In this document: one piece after another, positions 3,109 to 29,554 of the stretch
Layout: each line of letters starts with the position of its first letter
Position numbering within the stretch: position 1 is the first letter of the stretch
Source of the DNA: an uncultured Gammaproteobacteria bacterium
GTDB taxonomy: Bacteria; Patescibacteriota; Patescibacteriia; UBA9934; GWF2-40-263
Direction: 5' to 3'
Assembly (NCBI GenBank): GCA_964616135.1
Contig: CAZTTQ010000003.1
Location: 1 to 48,934 of the forward strand
Length of the DNA stretch: 48,934 nt
The notes under the pieces: model-generated
The model's database searches: none
The model's input: only the letters and a program-made list of their open reading frames with translations
Told to the model about the DNA's origin: nothing
Translations under genes and position numbers: made by a program

Positions 3109-3136
3109 AAAAAGACCGGCCTTAGCCGGTCTTTTT
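3109..3136 (-). terminator. folD intrinsic terminator with the stop codon in the loop
   Basis: AAAAAGACCGGC-cTTAg-GCCGGTCTTTTT. The 7-bp GC stem is flanked by A5 and T5. The TAA stop of folD (3122-3124, minus strand) lies in the loop. Confidence 0.75.
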
Positions 3137-3958
3137 CTTAAGCTCGCGCGCTTTGAGTACGTTCAGCAGCAGGTACGCCACGGTGAGCGGGCCGCTGCCG
3201 CCCGGGACGGGAGACACCCACCCGGCGACCGGATCCACGGACGAACGGTCCACGTCGCCCATGACGCTCTTGCCGGATTTGGTCGTGCCAACGTCGATCA
3301 CAACGGCACCGGGCTTCAGCAACTGGGCGGTAATGAGACCCGGACGTCCGACTGCCGTGACCAAGACGTCTGCTGTACGGCATCGTTCTACCAGGTGCGG
3401 CGCATGCGGCGAGACGATCTCTGATACCATCCCGCGTTCCTTCAGCAGGGAAGCGAGCGGGGAGGAAAACAATTCACTACCGACTAAGACGGCTTTTTTC
3501 CCCGTTACATTCTGCCCCGTGGCCTCAATCAGCTTCATGACGCCCAAGTGGACGGGCGGGGCCAAGCACGGTTTGCCCGCGGCGCAGGCGGCGGCGTTGT
3601 CTGGATGGAACCCGTCGATGTCCTTGGCGGGATCAATGGCCGGGATAATGCGGTTCGGATCCTGCGTGGGCAGGGGAAGCTGGACCAAGATGCCGTCCAC
3701 GTCGGCACGGGCGTTCAGTTCGTCGATTTTTTCAAGCAACACGTGTTCCCCAATGTCCGCGGCATAGGAGAACTGTTCAAAATGGATCCCCGCCTCCTCA
3801 CACGCACGTTTTTTTAAACCGACGTACACGTGGGAGGCCGGATCGTCTCCAACCAGCAGGACGGCCAGACCGAGCGGTGGGGATAACTTGGCTGCGCGGT
3901 CGCGGACCTTCTCCCGGATGGCTGCGGCGAGAGAGGTTCCGTTCAAGACGATTGCCAT
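3122..3958 (-). CDS. folD: Bifunctional methylenetetrahydrofolate dehydrogenase/cyclohydrolase FolD
   Basis: Start at ATG 3958 (MAIVLNGTSLAAAIREKV...). Motifs typical of FolD: VLLVGDDPASHVYV, DGILVQLPLP, DGFHP, VVIDVG, PVPGGSGPLTVA. Confidence 0.93.
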   Translation of the reverse strand: MAIVLNGTSLAAAIREKVRDRAAKLSPPLGLAVLLVGDDPASHVYVGLKKRACEEAGIHFEQFSYAADIGEHVLLEKIDELNARADVDGILVQLPLPTQDPNRIIPAIDPAKDIDGFHPDNAAACAAGKPCLAPPVHLGVMKLIEATGQNVTGKKAVLVGSELFSSPLASLLKERGMVSEIVSPHAPHLVERCRTADVLVTAVGRPGLITAQLLKPGAVVIDVGTTKSGKSVMGDVDRSSVDPVAGWVSPVPGGSGPLTVAYLLLNVLKARELKKKTG

Positions 3959-4003
3959 AATGGGCCTATCCTGACAGGGAAAATCGAAAAGATCAAGCGG
4001 GAG

Positions 4004-4012
4004 TGGTATACT
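4004..4012 (+). promoter_or_regulatory. Extended -10 promoter element (TGGTATACT) upstream of the giant gene
   Basis: TGn+TATACT lies 27 nt upstream of ATG 4040. The same TGGTAyAnT form recurs at 31548-31556. No good -35 is present. Confidence 0.4.
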
Positions 4013-4039
4013 GTTTCCGTACCGCAAACAATCCCGTCC

Positions 4040-7000
4040 ATGAGGAGGTTCAGGGACATATTGAACACGCTCCGCACCATCATCACCGGGTGGTTGCTTT
4101 TCTCGTTGATGTGGGGAAACGGCGGGTTGCAGGCCGTGTTGTCCGTACCGACGGCCAAAGCTGCCGGGGAGTTCTCCGTAAAGACCGGCTATTACGTAGG
4201 AACTGGTACCACGTTGGCCATAACAGGGCTCGGGTTCCAGCCGGAGGTCGTCATGGTGAAGGCGGAGTCCTCCGCCGGTAACTGGATGTTCAAAACGTCG
4301 GCCATGCCGACTTCCGTCACTGCATATCTGGGTGCTTCGACGTCAGATAATGCTGAATCGGAAATTACCTTCACGTCGGATGGATTCACGCTGTCCCCCG
4401 CCTTGGAAGTGAACACGGTCAACGTCCGGTTCCTCTACATGGCATTCTACGGGTACATGTGTGTGGGAAGTTACACAGGGAACGGTTCTTCCAACCAGGC
4501 GATCTCAAGTGTTGGGTTCCAACCCGATTTGGTCATGGTCCGTAGATCCATTGCGTCGAGCGTCGTGTTCCGTACTTCGGACATGAGCACGAACCATGCG
4601 GCGTTCATTGATTCTGCTTCAGCAAACAACACGACGGGGGTTTATTTTCAGACCTTGAATGCAACTGGATTTACTGTAGGATCCACAGTTAACGTCAACG
4701 CGGGCTCGTATTATTTCCTCGCATTTAAAAACCTGGCAAATAAGTTCAAGGTCGGCACTTTTACCGGGGACGGAACGGACAACCGTAACATTACCGGAGT
4801 GGGATTCTTACCTGATTTCGTCTTCATTAAGCAGAACTCGGCGATCGTTGGGGCCTTCCTCCAGACGGAGTCTTGGGGAGACGCTTCCGTGCTCCCCAAC
4901 TTGAGCTTTCCCGTCGTAAACCACATTCAGTCGTTGCTAGCGGACGGGTTCCAAGTGGGATCCGGCAACAGCGTGAACGTGGTAGGTGTAGCAAGTTACT
5001 ATTTTGCCTTTGGCGGCGCGCCGGATCCGGTCACGTCCGGTAGTTTTTACATGGCCCGCGGATCCTATACCGGCAACGGGACGTCCCAAAGCATTGATAC
5101 GACGTTCCGGCCGGATTTGGTGATGATAAAAGGGAACACCATCCAATACGCCGTCTGGGCCACCAGTCTGGAGCGTGACAATACGCACTATTTTGCGACG
5201 ACGACGCCGTTCACGACAGGCATCACCTCTCTGAATGCCACAAGCTTTTCCGTGGGCGCGCACGCGACCGTGAACTCAAACCTACTGACGTACGAATGGA
5301 TGGCATTCGGAAACGCCACTACTCCGCAACGCGGTGGGGGATCCGCGGAGTTCGTGATCGGTGCGTTTACAGGGACAGGTCTCGCGCGTAGCATTACCAA
5401 TTTGGGGATGGCGCCGGACATGGTCACGGTCAGCCGTAATGGTGCGTCGACTCCCGTTTGGAAAACATCGGCGCCAACCACCGCGGCCGGGACATCCTTG
5501 TATTTTGTTAACACGGCAGATGATGCAACGGCAACACTGATCAACACACTGACGTCGAATGGTTTTACGGTGGGAACCGGTGCCACAGTAAACACGGCCA
5601 ACGCAGTCAACGTATTCTTTGGCTTTAAGGAAGGAGCTAACTTTGACGTCGGTACGTATACGGGAGACGGCGTGGCGGGACGCGATGTGACAGGTCTGGG
5701 GTTTGATCCCGATTTGGTGTGGGTGAAGCGCAGTACGGCGGTTGGTGGCGTTCTTCGCTCCACGTCTTCAACCATCACTGGGACGAACGCCCAATACTTT
5801 CAAAACTTGGCCAACGCGGGCAGCCTCATTACCGGGTTCATTACGGGTGGGTTTGAAGTGGGGACGGCCTCGGAAGTGAACGCAGCCGCGGGTGTCTACC
5901 GCTATGCCGCATGGAATGCCACCACCACGGCCAATCCGCCGAATACCCCCACCAACTCCAGTCCCGCCAATGCGGCAACAGCACAGGATCTAAACCCGAC
6001 ACTCACGGGCTCCGCCTATTCTGACACGGACGGGGACACCCACGCGGCCACGTATTGGGAAGTAGATGACGACTCAAACTTTACTCACCCAGCATGGACG
6101 CGGACGTCTGTGACGGGGGAGACGAGCATTGTGGTGAACACGACCAATGGGACCTTTGCGAACGAGTCGGCGGGAAAAACGGAATTGGACCACAACACCA
6201 CCTACTATTGGCGCGTCAAATATTCGGACGGCGTCTATTCTCCGTTGTCGACCGCCACGTCCTTTACGACCAACGCCATCGTCACGCCGACAAACTCCAG
6301 TCCGGCAGCGGACGCGACGGTGACCAGCCTGACCCCCACACTCACCGCGTCTGCGTTCTCGGATCCGCAGGCAGGCCATACGTCCGCCAGCGCCCAGTGG
6401 CAGATCAGCACGGTCAGCGACTTTTCGACCACCGTGTATGACTCCGGAACAGTCAGTTACACTGCCTCGTTGGCGGTGCCGAGCGCCGTGCTTGCCGATC
6501 GCACCTCCTATTACTGGCGCGTGCGATACAAGGACTCCTCCGACTTTTGGTCGAGCTGGTCCACGGCCACGCGTTTTGCCACCAACGTATCCGTCGTGTC
6601 AGTGACGGGCTTGATCGGTTCTCCGGTTGTCGACCAGGGAGACACCTTGAAAATAGACGCCCGCGTCGCCCTGACCAACGGGACGGCCATCAACGACGCG
6701 ACGGTAACGGTGAATATTTACAACCCTTCCGGGACTAAGGTCGTAGACGCGGCCTCCATGACCTACCTGACGGGTTCCAACGGCGTGTACCGGTATTCCT
6801 ATACGGTTCCCGCTACCAGCGGCAGCTATCTCTATGAGGCGACGGCAGTCAGTAACAGCGTGACGGGTTACGGGGCGGGGAACTTTGAGGTGCGGACCCT
6901 GCAGGCGAACGTGAGCACGATCTCGTCAAACCTCACCTCGTTGTCATCGACGGTTTCCACCATCGCCTCCGACGTCGCAGACATAAAGACGGACGTCGCG

Positions 7001-10000
7001 ACGCTGATCACCCAAATCGGCACCGGCAACATTTCAGCCATCAAGACGGCTACGGACACCATCAACTGGGCAAACGTAACGACAATTGTCTCCAACACGG
7101 GTGCCATCCAGGCTAAAACCGACACGATTGATTGGACGGACGTCGCCGCCATCAAGACCAAGACAGACACCATCGCCTGGGCGGACATCACGGATATCCA
7201 ATCCAAGGTTGATACTCTGGTGACCCAGATCGGTACCGGTAATATTTCAGCCATCAAGACTGCCACGGATACCATTGCTTGGACCGACGTGACCAGCATC
7301 CTCACGGATACGGGGATTATCAAAGCAAAGACGAACACCATCGACTGGACGGACGTCGCTGCTATCAAGACCAAGACGGATACCATCCTCTGGACCGATG
7401 TGACGGGTGTCCGTTCCGTCGTTGATACGCTGGCTTCGGAAATCGGCACTGGCAACATCTCGGCCATTAAGACCAAGACGGACACGGTTGATTGGACCGA
7501 CGTGACGGGGGTCGTGACGGACACGGGGCTGATCAGAGCCAAGACCGACACTATTGATTGGAGTAACGTCACGGCCATCAAGACCAAGACGGATACGATC
7601 AATTGGGCCGACGTCACGGACATTCAGTCGAATGCGGATACGTTGGTGACGGAAATCGGCACGGGCCGCATTTCGGCCATCAAGACGTCTACGGACACGA
7701 TTGACTGGGGCGACGTAACCGGGATCGTGACGGACACGGGCCTCATCAAGGCAAAGACCGACACCATTGATTGGACGAACGTGACGGCGATCAAAACCAA
7801 GACGGATACCATCCTCTGGACTGACGTGACAGGCGTTCGTTCCGTCGTGGACGACCTCGCAACTGAAATCGGTACCGGAAACATTGCCGCCATTAAGACC
7901 AAAACGGATACCATCAATTGGGCGAACGTAACCGGGATCGTGACGGACACGGGCCTCATCAAGGCAAAGACGGACACCATTGATTGGACGAACGTGACGG
8001 CGATCAAAACCAAGACGGACACCATCGCGTGGGCTGACGTCACGGACATCCAAGCAAAGGCCACCAGTATCCAGGCGAACATGGATATCCTGGTCGGTGC
8101 CATGATCGTGACCCAAGGGACGGTCAGTGATGCGTCCGCGACCACAACCTCGTTTGTCTCCTCGTTGACTAATGCGACGACTAATTTCTACAAGAACGCG
8201 GTCATTACATTCACGTCCGGGGCGTTGGACGGCCAGAACCGCCGCATTTCGGCCTATGATGGCGTCACGAAGGCCATTACCGTAGACCCGGCGCTCACCT
8301 CGGCCCCGGCGAACGGCGCCGGCTTCACCATCATTACCCAGAACGTGCGGGTGGAAGAGCAGATGGTGGACCACGAGGCGTTGGAATCCGCGTTCCGCGC
8401 GGACGTCACCAACCGCCTGACATCCATTGAAACGAAGATCGATACCATCACGTCCACGCTGAACGGCGTGGACACGGACCTGTCCGCGACGCAGGCGGTG
8501 GTAGACAACCTCCGCGCGTCCCAAGTATTGAACAGGGAGGTCGTCCTGTCGGACGTCTCGACCGTCGCCGCTTCCGGGGACTATCACGCGACGTTGACGG
8601 TGCAGGACTATGAATCCGATCCGGTGGCGCCGGACGCCGCTCCGCAAATAACCATTTACGACGCCACGGGTGCCACGGTTCAAGCGGCAACGCCCATGAC
8701 CCTGGCCTCTACGGGCGTGTACACGTTTGACCTGACCCTGGCCTCGGACGCCGTGTCCGGCCTGTGGGAATCCAAGGTCACCGTGGACGTCGGCGGGTCG
8801 TCAGACGTCACGCGCAAGGACTACTTCTACGTGACGGGCGCGCCGGCCCAGGTGCTCATTAACAGCATCTCGGACCTGACGGTTCCGTCCATCGCGGCCG
8901 ACATTACCATCACAAACGAAGGAACGGCCCCGTTCGAATACCCGTACGAATGGTGCGTTGTTTCTTCCGTAAACAACGCCTGCGGGGGAGGGGACGACGT
9001 CTACCACGGGTCCGCGGCGAAACTGATCGCCGTCGGGGAGAACTTCAACACGACGCTCTCGGCGACCGTGCCGACGCCGGGCAACTATTACTTCAAGCTT
9101 GTCGCCTACTTTGGAACGGAAGCGTCCGCGGCCAGCCGGTCGTTCACGGCCGTGGCGGACGGCGTGCCGCCGGAACCTCCGCCGACGTCCGGAGGTGGCG
9201 GCTCCAGCTGGGTCTACACCCCGCCCGTACCGGAACCGACGGCGACGGGAGAAGACCCGACGGGCGACCACGCCATGCTCATGCGTGAGCTGTCGGCCAG
9301 CTCCCTCAAGCTGGAAATGATCCTGGAGTCGTTGTCCATGATCTCGCCGGACGTGAAGCAACTGCTCGTCGTCAACGCGGGTCAGACCAGCAGCCTAAAG
9401 GACATCCAGAACAAGGTTTCGGACCTGCGCGCCGTGTCCACGGCCACGCGCCAGATCGTGGAACGCAAGGCCTCGGAGCCGATCGTCCACAGCTACATGA
9501 AGTTCAACTCGGTGGTCATCAGCTTCCTGATCACCAACCCGACCGGCGTGTCGCAAACCCTCAAGTTCAAGGCGTTCCTGCCGGAAGAAGCCAAACCGGA
9601 ATACGTCATGGACTCGCAGGGGTTGAAAGTGGACTACGACACCGACGCAAAACTGTACTTCGTCTCGGGCGACGTCGTGCTGGGCCCGAGCGAAACGGTG
9701 ACGCGCGACGTCGAACTGAAGGACGTGTGGGTGTTCGACAAGGACGAACTGGGCCAAATCAAGGCGCAAGTCGCCAGCATGCTGCCGGTCCTGTCCGGCA
9801 CGCAGTATGAGGCCCAAGGAATCCTGTTGAAGAACGACGTCGATTCGACGATCGACGCGGTGCTCCGCAAACAGGAAAGCAGCTACACGTCGCCGCAGGA
9901 CCACATCGTCGCGTACCGGGAAAACGTCGACCGCGTCGCGCGCGTGCATGAGGAAGTTTCAAAGATGAAAGACTTGGTCGTGCAGGCGGGGGCGTCCCGC

Positions 10001-10297
10001 AGCGTCGTCGGCCAAGTCGGCGGCATTCAGACGTTTGCCACCTGGGGCATTATCGTCGCCATCGTGTTCGGCTTTGGAATGTTGGCCGCCGTCATCTTCG
10101 CGATGTGGCGCCACCAGACCCTGCTGACGGCCGCCGCGCTTGGCATGAGCAAGGACGACCTGGCGGACTACTTGGGCAAGTCCAAGCGGAAAGCTCTGCC
10201 GCCCGCGCCTAAAAAGCCGAGGATCCGACGCAAAAAGGAAGAACCGGAGCCGATTGACCTGCCGCCTCCGCCGGACGCCGAACCCCCGCCCATGTGA
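4040..10297 (+). CDS. Giant (2085 aa) modular cell-surface protein with N-terminal signal/anchor and C-terminal TM anchor
   Basis: Uninterrupted 6258-nt ORF. Signal-like N-terminus (RRFRD..TIITGWLLFSLMW..AKA/AG). Six ~100-aa modules with G-x-[YF]-x-G-x-G...GF-x-PD-x-V-x-[VI]K. Two FN3-like modules ending YYWRV(K/R)Y, Ig/CARDB-like modules, and a 5 x 71-aa array. C-terminal TM helix WGIIVAIVFGFGMLAAVIFAMW plus a K/P-rich tail. Confidence 0.85.
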   Translation: MRRFRDILNTLRTIITGWLLFSLMWGNGGLQAVLSVPTAKAAGEFSVKTGYYVGTGTTLAITGLGFQPEVVMVKAESSAGNWMFKTSAMPTSVTAYLGASTSDNAESEITFTSDGFTLSPALEVNTVNVRFLYMAFYGYMCVGSYTGNGSSNQAISSVGFQPDLVMVRRSIASSVVFRTSDMSTNHAAFIDSASANNTTGVYFQTLNATGFTVGSTVNVNAGSYYFLAFKNLANKFKVGTFTGDGTDNRNITGVGFLPDFVFIKQNSAIVGAFLQTESWGDASVLPNLSFPVVNHIQSLLADGFQVGSGNSVNVVGVASYYFAFGGAPDPVTSGSFYMARGSYTGNGTSQSIDTTFRPDLVMIKGNTIQYAVWATSLERDNTHYFATTTPFTTGITSLNATSFSVGAHATVNSNLLTYEWMAFGNATTPQRGGGSAEFVIGAFTGTGLARSITNLGMAPDMVTVSRNGASTPVWKTSAPTTAAGTSLYFVNTADDATATLINTLTSNGFTVGTGATVNTANAVNVFFGFKEGANFDVGTYTGDGVAGRDVTGLGFDPDLVWVKRSTAVGGVLRSTSSTITGTNAQYFQNLANAGSLITGFITGGFEVGTASEVNAAAGVYRYAAWNATTTANPPNTPTNSSPANAATAQDLNPTLTGSAYSDTDGDTHAATYWEVDDDSNFTHPAWTRTSVTGETSIVVNTTNGTFANESAGKTELDHNTTYYWRVKYSDGVYSPLSTATSFTTNAIVTPTNSSPAADATVTSLTPTLTASAFSDPQAGHTSASAQWQISTVSDFSTTVYDSGTVSYTASLAVPSAVLADRTSYYWRVRYKDSSDFWSSWSTATRFATNVSVVSVTGLIGSPVVDQGDTLKIDARVALTNGTAINDATVTVNIYNPSGTKVVDAASMTYLTGSNGVYRYSYTVPATSGSYLYEATAVSNSVTGYGAGNFEVRTLQANVSTISSNLTSLSSTVSTIASDVADIKTDVATLITQIGTGNISAIKTATDTINWANVTTIVSNTGAIQAKTDTIDWTDVAAIKTKTDTIAWADITDIQSKVDTLVTQIGTGNISAIKTATDTIAWTDVTSILTDTGIIKAKTNTIDWTDVAAIKTKTDTILWTDVTGVRSVVDTLASEIGTGNISAIKTKTDTVDWTDVTGVVTDTGLIRAKTDTIDWSNVTAIKTKTDTINWADVTDIQSNADTLVTEIGTGRISAIKTSTDTIDWGDVTGIVTDTGLIKAKTDTIDWTNVTAIKTKTDTILWTDVTGVRSVVDDLATEIGTGNIAAIKTKTDTINWANVTGIVTDTGLIKAKTDTIDWTNVTAIKTKTDTIAWADVTDIQAKATSIQANMDILVGAMIVTQGTVSDASATTTSFVSSLTNATTNFYKNAVITFTSGALDGQNRRISAYDGVTKAITVDPALTSAPANGAGFTIITQNVRVEEQMVDHEALESAFRADVTNRLTSIETKIDTITSTLNGVDTDLSATQAVVDNLRASQVLNREVVLSDVSTVAASGDYHATLTVQDYESDPVAPDAAPQITIYDATGATVQAATPMTLASTGVYTFDLTLASDAVSGLWESKVTVDVGGSSDVTRKDYFYVTGAPAQVLINSISDLTVPSIAADITITNEGTAPFEYPYEWCVVSSVNNACGGGDDVYHGSAAKLIAVGENFNTTLSATVPTPGNYYFKLVAYFGTEASAASRSFTAVADGVPPEPPPTSGGGGSSWVYTPPVPEPTATGEDPTGDHAMLMRELSASSLKLEMILESLSMISPDVKQLLVVNAGQTSSLKDIQNKVSDLRAVSTATRQIVERKASEPIVHSYMKFNSVVISFLITNPTGVSQTLKFKAFLPEEAKPEYVMDSQGLKVDYDTDAKLYFVSGDVVLGPSETVTRDVELKDVWVFDKDELGQIKAQVASMLPVLSGTQYEAQGILLKNDVDSTIDAVLRKQESSYTSPQDHIVAYRENVDRVARVHEEVSKMKDLVVQAGASRSVVGQVGGIQTFATWGIIVAIVFGFGMLAAVIFAMWRHQTLLTAAALGMSKDDLADYLGKSKRKALPPAPKKPRIRRKKEEPEPIDLPPPPDAEPPPM
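7004..8068 (+). repeat. In-frame tandem array, 5 units x 213 bp (71 aa), inside the giant gene
   Basis: Unit starts at 7004, 7217, 7430, 7643 and 7856, exactly 213 nt apart. Unit consensus is L(V/I)T(Q/E)IGTGNISAIKT-x-TDTI-x-W-x-(D/N)VT...AKTDTIDW(T/S)(D/N)V(A/T)AIKTKTDTI-x-W-x-DVT. Units alternate A-B-A-B-A in their last ~15 aa (..W(A)D(I/V)TDIQ(S/A).. versus ..LWTDVTGVRSVVD..). Confidence 0.9.
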
Positions 10298-10731
10298 CGG
10301 TAGAAGACTTGGGCGGGCCGCCGAAAGGCGTGACCCCAGCGATCCTCGCGTGCGTGGCAGGTTTGGTCCTGCCCGTTCTCCTCATCCCGGTTATTGCCTT
10401 CACGGGCTCCTCGGAATGGGTCGAAGAACTGGCCAAGGCCGCCGTCGTCCTGTTCCTGGTGCTGGCCGTGCCGGGTCGGACGCGCCAATTGGCGACGGGG
10501 ACCGCGTTCGGCTTCTTGTTCGGCCTGTCGGAAAACGCGCTGTATCTGAACCAGGTGTTCCAGGCGGGGACCGTTTCCACGTTCTGGGAACGGTTCGCCT
10601 GGACCCTGCCAATGCACCTGCTGACGGCCGCGCTCCTCACCGTATCCGGCCTCTGGGGGAAGAAATTCCTCCCCTTCGGCTTTGCCGCGGCGTTGGGGCT
10701 CCACCTGCTGTTCAACCGGCTTGCTGTGTAA
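10294..10731 (+). CDS. PrsW/CPBP-like intramembrane metalloprotease (short, 5 TM)
   Basis: The GTG start overlaps the giant gene stop (GTGA). Motifs EELAKA (EExxK), FGLSEN (FxxxE), PMHLLTA and GLHLLFN (HxxxN) are embedded in predicted TM helices. The exact start is uncertain (alternative GTG at 10330). Confidence 0.55.
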   Translation: MTVEDLGGPPKGVTPAILACVAGLVLPVLLIPVIAFTGSSEWVEELAKAAVVLFLVLAVPGRTRQLATGTAFGFLFGLSENALYLNQVFQAGTVSTFWERFAWTLPMHLLTAALLTVSGLWGKKFLPFGFAAALGLHLLFNRLAV

Positions 10732-10755
10732 AAGACGCCCCTTCGGGCGTCTTTT
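10732..10755 (+). terminator. Intrinsic terminator after the PrsW-like gene
   Basis: AAAGACGCCC-cttc-GGGCGTCTTT followed by TG; it begins right after the stop TAA (10729-10731). Confidence 0.75.
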
Positions 10756-10758
10756 GCG

Positions 10759-24781: not shown

Positions 24782-24855
24782 TTGCTTGCGTTTGGGCCCC
24801 CGTTCGGCTACGCTAGCCGCGTTCATTTTTGACCCTTTTCCTTCCGTTCCGGCTT

Positions 24856-26952
24856 ATGCAGACTTGGAAACGCAAGAAAGCCTACGTCCGCCCCAGCCAC
24901 GTTGGGGCCGTAAAGCCGTGGCGCACGCGCCTGGCCGCCGCCTTTTTCCTGTTGGCCACCGTGGCCACGGGCCTGTCGTCGTTCCCGCAGCCGTGGGACG
25001 CCGCGGCCAACGCCGTGAATGCCAAGACGGGTTGGCACATCCCGACGGTCCCGGCACCCAACTTCCGCTTGGGGTTGGACCTGCAGGGCGGCACCCACCT
25101 CGTTTATGAGGCGGACATGAAGGACATTCCGGAAGCGGACCGCGACACCGCCTTGGAAGGCGTCCGCGACGTCATTGAAAAGCGCGTCAACGCGTTCGGC
25201 GTCGCCGAACCGCTGGTGCAGACCACGTCCACGGGCGGTACCTACCGCCTGGTGGTCGAACTGGCCGGCGTCCTGGACGTAAAGGAGGCCATTAAGCAGA
25301 TCGGCGAGACGCCGGTCTTGGAGTTCCGCGAACCTTCCAAGGATCTCGGCCGCGACCCGACCGCGGAAGAAAAGCAGAAGCTCGCCGACACCAACAAGGC
25401 GGAACGCAAGGCTGCCGCGGACGCGTTGGCCCGCGCCCAAAAGGCGCCGGCGACGTTTGCCGTGCTGGTCCAGGAATTGTCCGTGGACCTGACCAAGGCC
25501 GACACGCTCGGCAAACTCGGCAACGTGACGGCCGCGTCCGAAGCGTACGGCGCCATCGCCAAGGCCATCACAGCCACCGGCTCCTGGCCCGGCCGCGTGG
25601 TCCCGCGCGTCATTGAGACGCCGGAAGGCCTGAATGTGGTGAAGTACACGGGCATGGGCAACGGGCAGGAAATGCAGCTGTCCCACATTCTCGTCTGTTT
25701 TGAAGGCGCCACGGGCTGCGCCAACCCCATTCCGGAGTTGGACGCCTCGCTCCTCATCAACCGGTTGAAGGGGGAAGCGACGGCGGCGAACTTCGCCGAC
25801 CTTGCCACGCAGAACTCCACGGACGCCGGTTCCGCCGCGAACGGCGGCAAGTTGGATCCGTCGGAAACGGACCCGTGGGTCAAGCCCGGTTCCTTGGTCG
25901 CCCCGTTTGAAATCGCCGCCCTCGCGCTGAAGCCGGGCCAGATTTCCGACGTCGTGCGCACGGACTTCGGGTTCCACCTGATCTACAAGCGCGCCTCCCG
26001 CCCGGTAAAGACGTACCAGGTGGAGCACATCGTCCTGCCATTGTCGGACATCACCGACATCGCGGCCCCGGCGTCCCCGTGGAAGAACACGGCGTTGTCC
26101 GGCAAGCACTTGTCCCGCGCGACCGTGCAGTTCGACCAGACGTCGGGCGCCCCGCACATCGCCATCCAGTTCAACGAGGAAGGCGGCAAGCTGTTTGCCG
26201 AATTGACCGGCCGCTTGGTCGGCCAGCCGATCGGAATCTTCCTGGACGGCAATGCCATTTCCACGCCGGTGGTTGAAACGGCCATCATCGGAGGACAGGC
26301 CGTCATTACAAGCAAGGACTTCACTTTGGAGAGCGCCAAATTGCTCGCCCAGCGTCTGAACGCCGGCGCGCTGCCGGTGCCGATCACACTGCTGTCCCAA
26401 CAGACCGTCGGTCCGACGCTCGGCCTCGCGTCCCTGGACGCGTCGCTCAAGGCCGCGTTGATCGGCTTCGCCTTAGTCGCGCTGTTCATGATCGTCGTGT
26501 ACCGCCTGCCGGGCCTGGTCGCCGTCGTGGCGCTCGCCCTGTACGCGGCGCTGAACGTGCTGGCGTACCGGATCTTCGGGGTGACGATCACGCTCGCCGG
26601 CGTCGCCGGCTTGGTCCTGTCCCTCGGTATCGCTGTGGACGCCAACGTGCTCATCTTCGAACGTGTCCGGGACGAATCCCGCCACGGGCATGACCTGCGC
26701 ACGTCGTTGGAAGAAGGCTTCAAGCGCGCCTGGCCGCCCATCCGCGACGGCCACATGACCACGTTCATCTCGGCCATGGTGCTCTACACCTTCAGCTCCA
26801 GCTTCGTCCGCGGCTTCGCCCTCACGCTCGCCATCGGTATCATCCTCTCGCTCTTCACGGCCATCACGGTGACCCGCGCGTACCTGCGCGTCGTCTCCAA
26901 GCCGGCCTTCCTGCAGCGCCCCTGGCTCTACGGGTTCAAGAAATCCGCCTAA
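24856..26952 (+). CDS. secD: Protein-export membrane protein SecD with an inserted parvulin-type PPIase module
   Basis: N-terminal TM helix, then LGLDLQGGTHLVYE. C-terminal 6-TM core (VGPTLG....LSLGIAVDANVLIFERVRDE). About 230 extra residues sit in the periplasmic domain, including a rotamase-like segment. Confidence 0.9.
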   Translation: MQTWKRKKAYVRPSHVGAVKPWRTRLAAAFFLLATVATGLSSFPQPWDAAANAVNAKTGWHIPTVPAPNFRLGLDLQGGTHLVYEADMKDIPEADRDTALEGVRDVIEKRVNAFGVAEPLVQTTSTGGTYRLVVELAGVLDVKEAIKQIGETPVLEFREPSKDLGRDPTAEEKQKLADTNKAERKAAADALARAQKAPATFAVLVQELSVDLTKADTLGKLGNVTAASEAYGAIAKAITATGSWPGRVVPRVIETPEGLNVVKYTGMGNGQEMQLSHILVCFEGATGCANPIPELDASLLINRLKGEATAANFADLATQNSTDAGSAANGGKLDPSETDPWVKPGSLVAPFEIAALALKPGQISDVVRTDFGFHLIYKRASRPVKTYQVEHIVLPLSDITDIAAPASPWKNTALSGKHLSRATVQFDQTSGAPHIAIQFNEEGGKLFAELTGRLVGQPIGIFLDGNAISTPVVETAIIGGQAVITSKDFTLESAKLLAQRLNAGALPVPITLLSQQTVGPTLGLASLDASLKAALIGFALVALFMIVVYRLPGLVAVVALALYAALNVLAYRIFGVTITLAGVAGLVLSLGIAVDANVLIFERVRDESRHGHDLRTSLEEGFKRAWPPIRDGHMTTFISAMVLYTFSSSFVRGFALTLAIGIILSLFTAITVTRAYLRVVSKPAFLQRPWLYGFKKSA
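25672..25992 (+). other. Parvulin (PpiC-type rotamase)-like domain embedded in SecD
   Basis: MQLSHILVCFEG....NFADLATQNSTDAGSAANGGKLD.....LVAPFEIAALALKPGQISDVVRTDFGFHLIYKR follows the parvulin pattern (HIL..., S.D.GSA..GG.L, F..A...L..G..S..V.T.FG.H.I). Confidence 0.65.
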
Positions 26953-26953
26953 T

Positions 26954-27850
26954 ATGGCCTTCAGCTTCATCAAGACGCGCTATTGGTGGTTCGCCCTGTC
27001 CGGTGCCATGATCGTGGGCAGCCTGCTTGCGGTCGCGACGCTCGGATTGAACCAGAGCATCGACTTCACGGGCGGCAGCCTCATGGAACTGAAGTTCGAA
27101 GGGGACATGCCCGCCACGTTGGACGTCGCCCGGGACCTGACGGACGCCGGATTCAAGGCCGTGACCGTGCAGTCCTCCGGCGCGGACGAAGCGATCGTCC
27201 GCCTGGAATCCCTGGATGAAACGCGCCACCAGGAAGCCCTGGCGGCGTTGTCCAAGTCCTTCAAGGTGCAGGAATTGCGCTTTGACTCCATTGGCCCGGT
27301 CGTGGGGAAGGAGCTCAAGAACTCCGCCTTCACGGGCGTCGCGGTGACCTTGCTCCTCATCGGCCTCTATATCGCCTGGGCGTTCCGCAAGGTGTCCCAG
27401 CCGGTGGCCGCGTGGAAGTACGGCGCCCTGACGGTGCTGGCCGCCGCGCACGACGTCATCGTGCCGCTCGGCGTCTTCGCCGTGTTGGGCCGCTTCTACG
27501 GGTGGGAAGTGGGAACGGCCTTCGTGGCCGCCATCCTGACCATCTTGGGCTACTCCATCAGCGATACGGTGGTCGTGTTCGACCGTACGCGTGAAAACCT
27601 GCAGCATCAGACGGCGGGGGAGAGCTTCGCCGACGTGGTGGAAAAGAGCATCCAGCAGACGTTCGTTCGCTCGGTGAACACCAGCGTCACGACGTTGCTC
27701 GCTTTGCTCGCCATCCTTGTCTTCGGCGGGGACTCCACGCGTCCGTTCGCGTTGGCCCTGTTCGTCGGCATCCTGGTGGGGACGTATTCCTCCATCTTCA
27801 TCGCCTCGCCGCTCCTGGTCGAATGGGAGCTGCGTTCCAAGAACGCGTAA
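26954..27850 (+). CDS. secF: Protein-export membrane protein SecF
   Basis: IDFTGGS, DSIGPVVG, YSISDTVVVFDRTREN, 6 TM. Starts 1 nt after the secD stop. Confidence 0.93.
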   Translation: MAFSFIKTRYWWFALSGAMIVGSLLAVATLGLNQSIDFTGGSLMELKFEGDMPATLDVARDLTDAGFKAVTVQSSGADEAIVRLESLDETRHQEALAALSKSFKVQELRFDSIGPVVGKELKNSAFTGVAVTLLLIGLYIAWAFRKVSQPVAAWKYGALTVLAAAHDVIVPLGVFAVLGRFYGWEVGTAFVAAILTILGYSISDTVVVFDRTRENLQHQTAGESFADVVEKSIQQTFVRSVNTSVTTLLALLAILVFGGDSTRPFALALFVGILVGTYSSIFIASPLLVEWELRSKNA

Positions 27851-27889: not shown

Positions 27890-27906
27890 ATGCGGACGCG
27901 GACGCG

Positions 27907-27915
27907 TGCTATAAT
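27907..27915 (+). promoter_or_regulatory. Extended -10 promoter (TGcTATAAT)
   Basis: Perfect TATAAT (27910-27915) with an upstream TG. ATG 27926 lies 10 nt downstream. Confidence 0.55.
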
Positions 27916-27925
27916 CGGAGCCAAT

Positions 27926-29551
27926 ATGGTGCCATCGCTCGACCCCTCTTTCTGGACCCAGCCGATTGACCAAGTCCTGTACACTGTCCTCGTTCAGTTC
28001 GGGTGGATTCCCATTGCGCTGACCATCGTGCATGGTCTGCTCCAGGTGTGGAAAAACCACAAGCAGGGGGAATTCCTCTCCAAGCAAAAGTACGTAATGC
28101 TCGCCATCGACGTGCCGGCCATGACGGAACAGACGCCAAAATCCATGGAGAACCTGTTCGCCATGTTGGCCAGTTCCTATTCGGGTCCGACGTTCAAAGA
28201 AGAATGGATCATCGGCAAGGTGCAGACCACCTTCTCGTTTGAGATTGTCTCCACGGACGGCTACGTGCAGTTCTTGGTGCGCCTCCAGCCCAAGTTCCGT
28301 GATGCGTTGGAAGCGGCCATCTACGCGCACTACCCGGACGCCGAAATCGCGGAGGTTGAGGACTACGCGCGGGACTTTCCGACCAAGTTTCCGAATGACA
28401 CCCATGACATGTGGGGGTCCGAATTCAAGTTGAAGAATCCGGAAATCTTCCCCATCCGCACCATCCGGGACTTTGAAGACCCCATTACGAAGGAAATTAA
28501 GGATCCGCTCGGCCAGATCCTGGAACAGATGGCCAAGATGCGTCCCGGGGAAAACTTCTGGGTGCAATACCTGTTGGAGCCCTGTAACAATGATTGGCAA
28601 AAAGCCGGCGGCACCTTCATTAACAAGGTGTACGGCATTGAAAAGCCCCCGACGGAAAGCGGGTTCACGGCCGGTCTCCGCACGCTGGTCTCTGTGCCGG
28701 ACGCGGTGTTGGCCAAGACGCTCGGCATCACCATCGGCGACCTGTTCTTGGGCGCGCCGCCTAAGGCCAAAGAAGCGGACCAGTGGCGCGCGTTCAAGCT
28801 GACGTCCGTGGAAAAGGAACAAACGGCGGAAGTCCTGGAAAAAATCTCCAAGCCGGGCTTTAAGGTAAAAGTCCGCGTGCTCTACGTGGCGCGCAAGGAA
28901 GCCTTCAACAAGGGCGGCCGCGTGCTCATGATCAAGGGGATGTTCAACCAGTACGCCAACTCGTACCTCAACTCCTTCGGCTTCTTCGGCCAGAGCATGC
29001 CCAAGGACGACTACTTCTGGCAGGTGTGGGAATACGCCAAGAAACAGGAGACCCTGATGAAGGCGTACGTCAACCGTGACCCGTCCACGGGCGCCAACGG
29101 CCTGGTGCTCAACTCGGAGGAGCTCGCTACGTTGTGGCATTTCCCGATGATCGGCGTAAAGGCGCCGATGATCCGCAAGGCGGAGGCGCGCCGCGCGGAA
29201 CCGCCTATCGGCCTGCCGGTCGGTCTGGACGAGCCGCTGCCCACGGGCCCACGTGCCGACAAGAAGCCAAAAGAAGAAAAAGCCTATGTCGCCTCCGCTC
29301 CGGACGTGTCTTTGCCGGGCATGGCCGCCGCCGCGTATACGTCGTCTCCTGTGCGCGCTACGGCGCCGCACGCGGAAGTTGCCGCAGAGCCGGAAGAAGT
29401 CGAACTCGGCCTGGACGCAACTGATATGGGGCCGCCCGCGGACGTAGAACTGCCGGGACCGCCCCCGGGCTTCGTCACGGGAGAAGGCTTGGAAGACAAG
29501 GACAACGACGGCTCCCGTGAAGGCGCCCCGCCCCCCAATTTGCCCATGTAG
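27926..29551 (+). CDS. Single-pass membrane protein, partner of the T4CP-like ATPase (unknown family)
   Basis: 541 aa. TM helix FGWIPIALTIVHGLLQVW, a ~400-aa globular region (..SFEIVSTDGYVQFLVRL..IYAHYPDAEIAEVEDY..) and a Pro/Ala/Glu-rich tail. The next gene follows after a 3-nt gap. Confidence 0.7.
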   Translation: MVPSLDPSFWTQPIDQVLYTVLVQFGWIPIALTIVHGLLQVWKNHKQGEFLSKQKYVMLAIDVPAMTEQTPKSMENLFAMLASSYSGPTFKEEWIIGKVQTTFSFEIVSTDGYVQFLVRLQPKFRDALEAAIYAHYPDAEIAEVEDYARDFPTKFPNDTHDMWGSEFKLKNPEIFPIRTIRDFEDPITKEIKDPLGQILEQMAKMRPGENFWVQYLLEPCNNDWQKAGGTFINKVYGIEKPPTESGFTAGLRTLVSVPDAVLAKTLGITIGDLFLGAPPKAKEADQWRAFKLTSVEKEQTAEVLEKISKPGFKVKVRVLYVARKEAFNKGGRVLMIKGMFNQYANSYLNSFGFFGQSMPKDDYFWQVWEYAKKQETLMKAYVNRDPSTGANGLVLNSEELATLWHFPMIGVKAPMIRKAEARRAEPPIGLPVGLDEPLPTGPRADKKPKEEKAYVASAPDVSLPGMAAAAYTSSPVRATAPHAEVAAEPEEVELGLDATDMGPPADVELPGPPPGFVTGEGLEDKDNDGSREGAPPPNLPM

Positions 29552-29554
29552 CCT

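What the first reader, a model, noticed from the sequence alone, without database searches (positions are those of the whole stretch)
4040..10297. 2085-aa modular envelope-anchored giant protein built from unrecognised repeat modules
Seen in sequence. One uninterrupted 6258-nt ORF encodes the following parts in order.
- A signal/anchor N-terminus.
- Six tandem ~95-110-aa modules (about nt 4172-5915), each carrying G-x-[YF]-x-G-x-G ... G-F-x-P-D-x-V-x-[VI]-K. The six examples are GYYVGTGTT..GFQPEVVMVK, GSYTGNGSS..GFQPDLVMVR, GTFTGDGTD..GFLPDFVFIK, GSYTGNGTS..FRPDLVMIK, GAFTGTGLA..GMAPDMVTVS and GTYTGDGVA..GFDPDLVWVK.
- Two FN3-like modules ending in YYWRV(K/R)Y (about 5957-6590).
- Ig/CARDB-like beta modules.
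- A 5 x 71-aa array.
- More Ig-like modules and a Pro-rich linker.
- A ~270-aa C-terminal module, a single TM helix and a Lys/Pro-rich cytoplasmic tail.
Parts of the 5' third look AT-richer than neighbouring genes (by eye, not computed). Inference: this is a surface fibre or adhesin anchored by its C-terminus, the sort of protein expected to mediate cell-cell or host contact in a reduced, surface-attached organism. I cannot assign the N-terminal module or the 71-aa unit to any named family.
Basis: partly seen in the sequence, partly recalled or inferred. Interest (0 to 1): 0.65.

Follow-up and report, generated by a model that had tools for sequence, protein, structure and literature searches.

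The report
Giant surface fibre plus partner protease
This is a real 2085-residue cell-surface fibre of an ultrasmall (Patescibacteria/CPR) bacterium with a tip related to phage tail-fibre proteins, and it is always encoded with a tiny membrane protease that probably cuts or releases it, a pairing I did not find described in the papers searched.

Summary
It is one intact 6258-nt ORF with a signal peptide, six ~97-aa modules, two FN3-like modules, Ig/MG2-like modules and exactly 5 x 71 aa. These are followed by a Pro-rich linker, a conserved ~260-aa C-terminal module, one TM helix and a basic tail.

The "unrecognised" N-terminal module is Pfam DUF7483 and also matches a PHROG annotated as tail fiber protein. 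AlphaFold2 folds the six modules into one compact all-beta body (pLDDT 94, pTM 0.91) with no solved homologue. The 71-aa unit stays unassigned. It fills a variable-length gap (9-532 aa in orthologues).

The host is a Candidatus Uhrbacteria-like CPR bacterium from wastewater. More than 400 homologues exist, all unnamed or named Patescibacteria.

New: the next gene (10294-10731) overlaps the stop codon by 4 nt and encodes a 145-aa PrsW-family intramembrane protease with invariant catalytic-type motifs. This pairing with the C-terminal anchor module holds in 22 of 24 species loci, and in 4 of 4 loci in the reverse test. The same anchor carries other heads elsewhere.

Best reading: a C-terminally anchored host-contact fibre, processed or shed by its own protease. 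Adhesion and cleavage are inferred, not shown.

The parts
3984..4012 (+). Promoter-like site (TCGAAA, 17 nt spacer, TATACT with upstream TG) in the 81-nt gap between folD and the giant gene
   Evidence: consensus scan (9 of 12 matches, TG extension); sequence. This is a consensus match only.
4040..10297 (+). Giant ORF, 2085 aa, surface fibre
   Evidence: GC by codon position 0.50/0.49/0.76, consistent with coding. 419 homologues.
4040..4162 (+). Signal peptide, aa 1-41, predicted signal peptidase I site AKA|A
   Evidence: Sequence. The AxA site 3 residues before module 1 is present in all 26 relatives in which it could be located. Cleavage itself is inferred.
4169..5938 (+). Head: six DUF7483 modules (aa 44-633), one compact all-beta body
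   Evidence: Pfam DUF7483 1.5e-25. phrog_24898 'tail fiber protein' 3.8e-29. AF2 pLDDT 94.4, pTM 0.91. BFVD phage DUF7483 proteins E 5.6e-42. Positional orthology of modules 1-6.
5939..6622 (+). Two FN3/Ig-like modules (aa 634-745, 746-861) ending in YYWRV(K/R)Y
   Evidence: 40% identity between the two, E 1e-15. Pfam Ig_Rha78A_N 1.6e-8 at aa 783-849.
6623..6895 (+). MG2-like Ig beta-sandwich (aa 862-952)
   Evidence: Pfam MG2 1.4e-7, 32.2 bits, just under the 32.8 cut-off. AF2 pLDDT ~90. Alpha2-macroglobulin and complement MG hits.
6896..7012 (+). Helical lead-in to the array (aa 953-991)
   Evidence: AF2 helix at tile residues 93-133, pLDDT ~60.
7013..8077 (+). 5 x 71-aa array (aa 992-1346). 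Each unit holds three IKxKTDTIxW sub-repeats spaced 22, 15 and 34 aa. Read as a variable-length stalk.
   Evidence: Orthologues have 9-532 aa at this position. AF2 pLDDT <50. Only phrog_7599 (unknown function) at 5.7e-6. No PDB match.
8111..8335 (+). Small conserved beta domain (aa 1358-1432)
   Evidence: AF2 pLDDT ~90. Invariant F/R/R/Y/P columns in the family alignment.
8348..8524 (+). Long helix (aa 1437-1495)
   Evidence: AF2 helix at tile residues 576-634.
8537..9157 (+). Two Ig-like beta-sandwiches (aa 1500-1599 MG2-like; aa 1603-1706 with a conserved Cys pair)
   Evidence: AF2 pLDDT 80-91. Tandem Ig/FN3/MG Foldseek hits, RbmA 7.8e-10. Similarity to the first MG2-like module, E 2e-5.
9164..9256 (+). 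Pro-rich disordered linker (aa 1709-1739)
   Evidence: AF2 pLDDT ~30; sequence.
9257..10030 (+). Conserved juxtamembrane anchor module (aa 1740-1997): helices, a beta-sandwich, then helices running into the TM
   Evidence: AF2 pLDDT 76-92. 28 invariant columns in the alignment, which also spans the TM. 790 representatives in 1.84 billion proteins. No Pfam, NCBIfam or PDB match.
10031..10111 (+). Conserved TM helix (aa 1998-2024), preceded by the Gly-rich GGIQTF motif
   Evidence: Hydropathy. Invariant G, W, G, L, W, Q columns. AF2 confidence dips at aa ~1982-2001.
10112..10297 (+). Basic and Pro-rich cytoplasmic tail (aa 2025-2085) plus stop codon
   Evidence: Sequence. Variable in relatives. 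Many relatives continue with a second TM and an SH3_3 domain.
10294..10731 (+). Mini PrsW-family intramembrane protease, 145 aa; its GTG start overlaps the giant gene's stop by 4 nt
   Evidence: Pfam PrsW-protease 1.2e-4, 22.1 bits against 23.5. 23 of 26 family members match Pfam, best 1e-9. Invariant E44 E45 K48 F76 E80 Y84 H108 T111 H137 N141. Linkage.
10727..10758 (+). Terminator-like hairpin that ends the two-gene unit
   Evidence: 14-bp stem, -22.7 kcal/mol, z -3.75; sequence.

Best explanation
A two-gene operon of a Candidatus Uhrbacteria-like CPR bacterium encodes a surface fibre and its own membrane protease.

SHOWN:
- The fibre has a Sec-type signal peptide with a conserved AxA site and a single conserved C-terminal TM helix.
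- Its mature N-terminus is a ~590-aa compact body of six DUF7483 beta modules. Their only recognisable relatives outside CPR are phage tail-fibre or virion proteins.
- Between head and membrane lie FN3, MG2 and Ig-like spacers. A repeat array in this stretch varies from about 0 to 530 aa between orthologues.
- The anchor module plus TM is a widespread unit (790 cluster representatives) that also carries other heads (LamG, Fib_succ_major and others).
- The anchor is genetically coupled, in both directions of testing, to a 131-158-aa PrsW-family protease. That protease has invariant EExxK, SE, H and HxxxN motifs.

INFERRED:
- The head is displayed at the tip of a long stalk and binds a host-cell surface ligand, as phage receptor-binding proteins do.
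- The array sets the reach of the fibre.
- The mini-PrsW cleaves the fibre at or next to its conserved Gly-rich juxtamembrane/TM segment. Cleavage would mature it, shed it (detachment or turnover) or signal contact.
For: Gene and topology.

Head:
- Pfam DUF7483, 90.5 bits.
- PHROG 'tail fiber protein' 3.8e-29 and 'virion structural protein' 3.4e-22.
- AF2 pLDDT 94.4, pTM 0.91.
- BFVD phage matches down to E 5.6e-42.
- tblastn hits in Synechococcus phage S-B68, in a gene two genes downstream of the annotated tail fiber gene, and in a Phage C72C1 virion structural protein.
- Module number is 6, 12 or 18 in 113 of 120 relatives, with position-by-position orthology.

Stalk:
- Foldseek hits to RbmA, alpha2-macroglobulin MG domains, invasin and an adhesin extender.
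- Array length varies between orthologues.

Operon:
- 4-nt overlap, promoter-like site and terminator hairpin.

Protease:
-.

Linkage:
- Window plus 4 homologue loci.
- 22 of 24 GTDB species loci; the other 2 contigs are truncated.
- Reverse test 4 of 4.
- No PrsW gene beside two 12-module genes that lack the anchor.

Organism.

Transcription hint: metatranscriptome contigs at 95-99% identity.

Precedents:
- PrsW peptidases as releasing peptidases of filamentous surface toxins (PMC3482391).
- Very large CPR proteins are surface-targeted and carry adhesion domains (PMC13059738).
- An intramembrane protease that sorts C-terminal-signal proteins (PMC11980579).
Against: - No binding, localisation or cleavage data exist.
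- The head has no solved structural relative (best PDB TM <= 0.2), so 'receptor binding' rests on its phage relatives and its distal position.
- The window's own PrsW score is just below Pfam's cut-off (22.1 against 23.5 bits).
- The mini-PrsW has roughly half the length of B. subtilis PrsW and fewer helices than the eight described for most family members (PMC3482391).
- The tail after the TM is 61 aa. In many orthologues it is followed by a second TM and an SH3 domain. That does not look like a classical terminal sorting signal and would suit a stable anchor.
- The family sits among housekeeping genes and has a very conserved architecture, which would also fit a structural envelope role.
- AF2 could not model the array.
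Confidence: 0.6

Rival explanations
1. It is a structural envelope component, such as a spacer or scaffold that ties the membrane to the wall or S-layer, rather than a host-contact adhesin. The protease would serve only assembly or quality control.
For: - Chromosomal housekeeping context in the window and in homologue loci.
- Strongly conserved architecture and position-specific modules.
- Many orthologues end in an SH3_3 domain, a domain type I know as often wall-binding (own knowledge), after a second TM.
Against: - No SLH or other S-layer domain was found.
- The distal domain is related to phage tail-fibre proteins.
- Heads are swapped on a constant anchor and stalk length is highly variable. 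Both are typical of interaction proteins rather than lattice components.
- The window's protein lacks the SH3 extension.
Confidence: 0.2
2. It is a contact or stress sensor working by regulated proteolysis. The mini-PrsW acts as a site-1 protease, as PrsW does on the anti-sigma factor RsiW. Cleavage after ligand binding or mechanical pull would free the basic cytoplasmic tail to signal.
For: - PrsW's characterised role is site-1 cleavage of a single-pass membrane protein (PMC3482391 and references there).
- The partner has a conserved single-pass TM with a cytoplasmic tail.
- An ECF-type sigma factor gene lies 4 kb upstream in one homologue locus.
Against: - The tail is poorly conserved in sequence and length.
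- There is no anti-sigma domain.
- No sigma factor is linked in the window or in the other loci inspected.
- No site-2 protease is linked.
Confidence: 0.12
3. The gene is phage-derived cargo, a prophage tail fibre, and not a cellular surface protein.
For: PHROG and BFVD matches of the head to phage tail-fibre or virion proteins. GC3 of the head is well below that of neighbouring genes.
Against: - It is flanked by uvrA, folD, glyA (SHMT), a Mur ligase and secA, with no phage genes.
- It has a signal peptide and a TM anchor.
- The same architecture occurs in many CPR lineages at different chromosomal sites.
- Identity to phage proteins is only 17-25%.
Confidence: 0.03
4. The long ORF or its repeat array is an assembly artefact (chimera or mis-counted repeats).
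For: Depth is only ~6x. Logan contigs break inside the array and one bin has doubled depth. A related strain shows a possible in-frame length variant.
Against: - An independent assembly of the source run reproduces the sequence at 100% identity across the gene.
- Array copies are only ~75% identical in DNA.
- The frame stays open through 2085 codons with coding-type GC3.
- Orthologues share the whole architecture.
Confidence: 0.03

Closest known systems
Pfam DUF7483 (PF24299) proteins, including phage tail-fibre or virion proteins (phrog_24898, phrog_19943; BFVD A0A6J5QL19 and others)
   Same: The ~97-aa beta module with G-x-[YF]-x-G-x-G ... GFxPDxVxxK ... GF.VG ... VN is the same family. Predicted folds superpose: about 300 columns at ~3 A rmsd for three-module pieces.
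   Different: - Here the modules form a fixed, position-specific set of six at the mature N-terminus of a membrane-anchored cellular protein.
- In phages they occur as 1, 3 or more copies inside virion proteins.
- Identity is only 17-25%.
- No member of the family has a solved structure or a tested function.
Giant Ig-repeat surface adhesins and matrix proteins (LapA/MpIBP-type 'large adhesion protein' extender 6xi3, invasin InvE 5n40, V. cholerae RbmA 4be5)
   Same: It shares the long modular build, with tandem Ig/FN3/MG-type spacers carrying a distal ligand-binding region. Foldseek E values are 1e-7 to 1e-10 for the tandem beta-sandwiches.
   Different: - There are no RTX repeats, no T1SS signal and no LPXTG motif.
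- Anchoring is by a C-terminal TM helix with its own conserved juxtamembrane module.
- The head is different.
- The host is a monoderm-like CPR bacterium.
PrsW-RsiW site-1 proteolysis (B. subtilis) and PrsW-dependent release of polymorphic toxins (PMC3482391)
   Same: The partner gene belongs to the PrsW family and keeps four conserved motifs. As in those systems, a membrane-embedded PrsW peptidase is paired with a membrane-tethered, sometimes filamentous, extracytoplasmic protein.
   Different: - The enzyme is a minimal version of 131-158 aa.
- It is a separate gene, not fused to its putative substrate.
- The partner has neither an anti-sigma domain nor a toxin domain.
Dedicated sorting or processing enzymes for C-terminal anchors (sortase/LPXTG, exosortase/PEP-CTERM, rhombosortase/GlyGly-CTERM, myxosortase/MYXO-CTERM; PMC11980579)
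   Same: The logic is the same: a conserved motif plus TM plus basic residues at the C-terminal end of surface proteins with varied ectodomains, genetically tied to a polytopic membrane peptidase.
   Different: - The signal is not terminal. A 61-aa tail follows, or a second TM plus SH3 in relatives.
- The recognisable unit includes a ~260-aa folded module.
- None of the known signature motifs is present, and there is no NCBIfam sorting-signal hit.
- Linkage is one-to-one gene adjacency rather than one enzyme serving many substrates.
LapG-LapA surface-retention switch (Pseudomonas fluorescens; from established knowledge, not tested here)
   Same: A giant adhesin whose presence on the surface is controlled by a dedicated protease that cuts near its anchor. 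This is the closest functional analogy for a shedding role.
   Different: - LapG is a periplasmic cysteine protease that cuts an N-terminal retention module in a diderm.
- There is no sequence or architectural relationship.

Membership tests
Pfam DUF7483 (PF24299) | Whole-protein HMM score above the curated cut-off (27 bits) | tested here: met
   90.5 bits, E 1.5e-25, 4 matched stretches. All 119 listed homologues carry PF24299.
Phage tail fibre / receptor-binding protein | Sequence or fold relationship to annotated tail-fibre families | tested here: met
   phrog_24898 'tail fiber protein' 3.8e-29. BFVD hits E 5.6e-42 to 8.1e-29. This applies to the head only.
Phage tail fibre / receptor-binding protein | Encoded in a phage or prophage structural module and lacking export or membrane-anchor signals | tested here: not met
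   The neighbours are uvrA, folD, SHMT, a Mur ligase and secA. The protein has a signal peptide and a C-terminal TM.
Phage tail fibre / receptor-binding protein | Homotrimeric assembly | not testable with these tools
   Only monomer AF2 is available. The six-module head folds confidently as a single chain. The array is unresolved.
PrsW family intramembrane protease (PF13367), for the downstream gene 10294-10731 | HMM score above the curated cut-off (23.5 bits) | tested here: inconclusive
   The window protein scores 22.1 bits, E 1.2e-4. 23 of its 26 orthologues match at E <= 0.01, best 1e-9. NCBI names relatives 'PrsW family glutamic-type intramembrane protease'.
PrsW family intramembrane protease (PF13367), for the downstream gene 10294-10731 | Four conserved motifs in membrane helices (PMC3482391), including the EExxK and HxxxN-type motifs | tested here: met
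   E44, E45, K48, F76, E80, Y84, H108, T111, H137 and N141 are invariant in 26 sequences.
PrsW family intramembrane protease (PF13367), for the downstream gene 10294-10731 | Proteolytic activity on a membrane-tethered partner | not testable with these tools
   Only genetic linkage is shown.
Sortase-anchored (LPXTG) surface proteins | LPXTG-like motif before a C-terminal TM and a short basic tail | tested here: not met
   No LP.[TSA]G motif anywhere in the protein.
RTX / T1SS giant adhesins (LapA, SiiE type) | GGxGxD nonapeptide repeats and a C-terminal T1SS signal; no N-terminal signal peptide | tested here: not met
   No GG.G.D motif. An N-terminal signal peptide is present.
Haft-type C-terminal sorting signals (PEP-CTERM, GlyGly-CTERM, MYXO-CTERM, PGF-CTERM) | Short signature motif, TM helix and a few basic residues at the extreme C-terminus; matching NCBIfam model | tested here: not met
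   No NCBIfam sorting-domain hit on the last 319 aa. A 61-aa tail follows the TM; relatives add a second TM and SH3_3. The motif-TM-basic order is nevertheless similar.
S-layer proteins | SLH or other recognised S-layer anchoring or lattice domains | tested here: not met
   None found in Pfam or NCBIfam scans of the whole protein.

The most novel reading that the evidence does not exclude
The conserved juxtamembrane module plus TM, together with the adjacent mini-PrsW, may be a previously undescribed, CPR-wide protein-sorting or release system. It would be analogous to sortase, exosortase or myxosortase systems. It would mount interchangeable host-recognition heads on the surface of ultrasmall epibiotic bacteria and cut them loose on demand. 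Those heads include the phage-receptor-binding-like DUF7483 six-pack, LamG and Fib_succ_major. The six-pack itself would be a new single-chain fold built from phage fibre-tip modules.
Probability: 0.3. Interest if true: 0.8.

Novelty: new variant of a known kind. Interest (0 to 1): 0.58.

Why it matters
How CPR/Patescibacteria recognise and hold on to host cells is largely unknown outside type IV pili in Saccharibacteria. Most of the phylum is uncultured.

This locus offers three testable things:
- a conserved, abundant fibre family;
- a confidently modelled tip related to phage receptor-binding proteins;
- a one-to-one partner protease whose cleavage of a defined ~350-aa C-terminal fragment can be assayed in E. 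coli without culturing the organism.

If the anchor plus mini-PrsW proves to be a general mounting and release system, it would add a new class to the known bacterial surface-protein sorting systems. It would also give a handle for predicting host-contact proteins across CPR genomes.

Two sizeable domain families also turn out to have no structure or function: the DUF7483 set of six modules, and the anchor module (790 cluster representatives, no Pfam model).

Tried and rejected
- PDB by sequence, whole protein: only noise (E ~0.9).
- PDB with the anchor-module profile: only integrin TM helices at E ~0.02, taken as chance similarity between TM helices.
- PDB with the array profile: nothing.
- PDB with the single-module profile: designed WD40-like WRAP-T proteins at 2e-7. 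This comes only from summing eight copies of a 20-aa motif, each with i-E ~300, so I rejected it as a repeat artefact.
- Foldseek of the head against PDB: best TM <= 0.2. The weak list contains single-chain pseudo-threefold beta assemblies (Parkia lectin, single-chain adiponectin trimer, PCSK9 C-terminal domain). I treat this as a hint only.
- Foldseek of the 1179-aa C-terminal tile: dominated by generic tandem Ig/MG hits, so it says nothing specific about the anchor module.
- NCBIfam: no family for the fibre, its C-terminus or the protease.
- AF2 of the array: pLDDT <50, so helix, beta or oligomer cannot be decided. Hydrophobic periodicity was also uninformative (strongest at 2.45 residues).
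- Literature: no paper mentions DUF7483, and no paper linking PrsW to CPR surface proteins turned up.
- Beta-propeller idea for the head (a closed ring would explain multiples of six): weakened by 9-module relatives and by 3- and 1-module phage proteins. I could not inspect coordinates to settle the arrangement.
- Prophage origin and assembly artefact: rejected on context and read evidence.

Full report
**1. The observation**

The ORF at 4040..10297 (+) is intact and encodes 2085 aa. Its GC by codon position is 0.50/0.49/0.76, which is typical of coding sequence in this 62.6% GC window.

- Six modules. A phmmer search with module 1 finds five further copies, i-E 1e-4 to 3e-11. The six modules span aa 44-633 and are 24-38% identical to each other.
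- FN3-like modules. The two are 40% identical, E 1e-15.
- Array. It is exactly five 71-aa units without indels at aa 992-1346. TRF reports a 213-nt period, 4.9 copies and 75% matches.
- TM helix. The only strong hydrophobic segment is aa 1998-2024.
- Low GC in the 5' third. This is real and is not just amino-acid composition. GC3 is 0.649 in the head against 0.821 +/- 0.045 in 16 neighbouring genes, and it rises steadily to 0.865 in the C-terminal module.
- Read support. Logan contigs of the source run (a wastewater metagenome) reproduce the gene at 100% identity. Depth is only ~6x and the contigs break within the array. The array count is therefore plausible, since copies differ by ~25% in DNA, but long reads have not confirmed it.

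**2. What the parts are**

Head, sequence level.
- The N-terminal module is Pfam DUF7483 (90.5 bits, cut-off 27).
- It also matches phrog_24898 'tail fiber protein' (3.8e-29) and phrog_19943 'virion structural protein' (3.4e-22).
- tblastn finds it in a 1596-aa protein of Synechococcus phage S-B68, in a gene two genes downstream of the annotated tail fiber gene. It also finds it in the 1474-aa virion structural protein of Phage C72C1.

Head, structure.
- AlphaFold2 with 47 homologues models aa 44-633 as one compact all-beta body, pLDDT 94.4 and pTM 0.91, with about eight strands per module.
- No solved structure resembles it; the best TM is <= 0.2.
- Predicted phage DUF7483 proteins do resemble it, with E down to 5.6e-42. 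Three-module pieces superpose at ~3 A, and stand-alone phage proteins of one module (110-117 aa) exist.

Head, module number.
- Among 120 relatives the module count is 6 (54 proteins), 12 (58) or 18 (1). There are also two with 9, four with 13 and one with 11.
- Each of the six positions is closest to the same position in other proteins (mean score 209-300 on the diagonal, 100-134 off it).
- The 12- and 18-module proteins are tandem copies of the whole set.
- The set of six is therefore the evolutionary unit in CPR proteins. The phage data and the 9-module proteins suggest that three modules form the underlying structural unit. That is an inference, because I could not inspect coordinates.

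Rest of the protein. AF2 of aa 862-2040 gives, in order:
- an MG2-like sandwich, pLDDT ~90;
- a helix;
- the array, pLDDT <50 and unresolved;
- a small beta domain at aa 1358-1432, ~90;
- a 59-aa helix;
- two Ig-like sandwiches, 80-91;
- a disordered Pro-rich linker;
- the C-terminal module.

The C-terminal module consists of helices, a beta-sandwich at aa 1815-1893, then helices, the last of which runs straight into the TM. Confidence dips at the conserved Gly-rich stretch just before the TM. Foldseek finds only generic tandem Ig/FN3/MG proteins: RbmA, alpha2-macroglobulins, complement, invasin and an adhesin extender.

The 71-aa unit has no named family. The only hit is phrog_7599 (unknown function) at 5.7e-6, and there is no PDB match. 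Orthologues have between 9 and 532 aa at this position. The array is therefore a lineage-specific, expandable spacer.

**3. Organism and family**

The best named SecA hits are Candidatus Uhrbacteria at 58-63% identity, including a 63% GC genome. The neighbours are ordinary chromosomal genes: uvrA, folD, SHMT, a Mur ligase, secA, secDF, era, murJ and alaS.

The fibre has 419 relatives at E <= 1e-5. Those with names come from Pacebacteria, Parcubacteria, Dojkabacteria, Colwellbacteria and 'Patescibacteria group'. About 42 of them share the full architecture: six modules, the same C-terminal module and the TM.

An AxA-type signal-peptidase site lies 3 residues before module 1 in all 26 sequences in which it could be located. 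The head should therefore be the free, distal end.

**4. The partner gene**

A GTG at 10294 overlaps that stop by 4 nt and opens a 145-aa ORF, 10294-10731. This ORF matches the Pfam PrsW family of intramembrane metalloproteases at E 1.2e-4, with 22.1 bits against a cut-off of 23.5.

A promoter-like site with an extended -10 lies upstream of the fibre gene. A 14-bp hairpin follows the protease gene. The two genes therefore look like one operon.

Conservation of the pairing:
- The same pair occurs in all four homologue loci inspected.
- A scan of one genome per GTDB species with the C-terminal module found 24 loci. Of these, 22 have a PrsW-like ORF within 3 kb, and the other two contigs end too early to tell.
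- In 26 of these small proteins, E44, E45, K48, F76, E80, Y84, H108, T111, H137 and N141 are invariant. 23 of the 26 match the Pfam model.
- Reverse test: four independent mini-PrsW homologues on long contigs all lie within ~2 kb of a gene carrying the same C-terminal module. Two of those genes are 3933 and 4152 aa long, and no DUF7483 was detected in the portions of them held in the loci; one carries LamG_3.
- Two 12-module DUF7483 genes that lack the anchor have no PrsW gene nearby. One of them sits in a type IV pilus cluster.

The anchor module is widespread. It has 790 representatives of 50%-identity clusters at E <= 1e-3 and 638 at <= 1e-10. It is combined with LamG_3, Fib_succ_major, 3-keto-disaccharide-hydrolase-like and other regions. 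It is usually followed by a second TM and an SH3_3 domain. No Pfam, NCBIfam or PDB entry covers it.

**5. How it most likely works**

Shown:
- export and anchor signals;
- a distal head related to phage proteins;
- adhesin-type spacers;
- a variable stalk;
- a constant anchor with swappable heads;
- tight, reciprocal linkage to a PrsW-type protease with intact motifs.

Inferred:
- The head binds a surface ligand of a host or partner cell.
- The array sets the reach of the fibre.
- The protease cleaves at or near the conserved GGIQTF/TM segment, to mature, shed or signal.

Three precedents bear on this. PrsW peptidases are proposed as releasing peptidases of filamentous surface toxins (PMC3482391). 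Very large CPR proteins are surface-targeted and carry adhesion domains (PMC13059738). An intramembrane protease sorts proteins by a C-terminal signal (PMC11980579).

Rivals are a structural envelope role, a regulated-proteolysis sensor, a phage gene and an assembly artefact. The last two are contradicted by context and reads.

**6. Comparison and novelty**

The protein is a member of DUF7483, so that membership test is met. It is not a sortase, T1SS/RTX, S-layer or Haft-type sorted protein. The defining motifs of those classes were tested and are absent.

It works like a giant modular adhesin. It differs in three respects: its head, its anchor module and its dedicated mini-PrsW. I found no paper on DUF7483 and none on this pairing. 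I rate it a new variant of a known kind.

The window's gene is one ordinary member of a large uncharacterised family. The interest lies in the family-level features uncovered here, all of which are computational.

Noticed in passing
window 24829-26952 (+): The SecD gene carries an inserted PpiC-type rotamase (PPIase) domain at aa ~278-395, between the SecD N-terminal and P1-head domains. SecF follows at 26954-27850.
   Followed up: no
window 27890-31510 (+): A 553-aa ORF without any Pfam hit is followed by a VirD4/TrwB-like coupling ATPase (29555-31510). It may be part of the patescibacterial type IV secretion system (compare PMC12102498).
   Followed up: no
window 4040-10297: GC3 rises monotonically along the gene, from 0.65 in the head to 0.865 in the anchor module. 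Neighbouring genes average 0.82 +/- 0.045. The head may have been acquired or exchanged more recently than the anchor.
   Followed up: partly
L031 5001-9191: A 12-module DUF7483 protein without the anchor module sits inside a type IV pilus gene cluster (PilB/T2SSE, PilC/T2SSF, PilM/N-like). The same head may therefore also be used in a pilus context.
   Followed up: no
P0002, P0003, P0005, P0010 C-termini; L035-L037: Most orthologues continue after the TM with a ~60-aa basic loop, a second TM and a C-terminal SH3_3 domain. The window's protein ends after the basic/Pro-rich tail.
   Followed up: partly
window 7599-7904 (run X2): A related strain (95-99% identity) in an activated-sludge metagenome shows a contig joint that skips 304 nt and inserts 34 nt inside the array. 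This would be an in-frame length variant. The evidence is weak, with only 20 nt on one side.
   Followed up: no
window 3122-4027 (-): The folD ORF as listed starts at TTG 4027, only 12 nt from the giant gene. ATGGCAATC at 3958 is the more likely start, which leaves an 81-nt divergent promoter region.
   Followed up: partly
L001 1-7118: Upstream of the closest orthologue (P0002) lie a 1970-aa Cap4-nuclease/NACHT protein and a serine recombinase. This may be a defence or mobile island next to the fibre gene.
   Followed up: no
L038 10529-13222 (-): The public gene calls miss an 898-aa ORF that carries the anchor module, 2 kb from a mini-PrsW gene. Calls in that contig are fragmented.
   Followed up: partly
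window aa 1998-2024 of the fibre: The conserved TM (W-G-I-I-x-A-I-V-F-G-F-G-x-L-A-A-V-I-F-A-M-W-R) resembles integrin alpha-chain TM helices in a profile search (E ~0.02). I take this as chance. It does point to a small-residue packing face suited to helix-helix contact.
   Followed up: no
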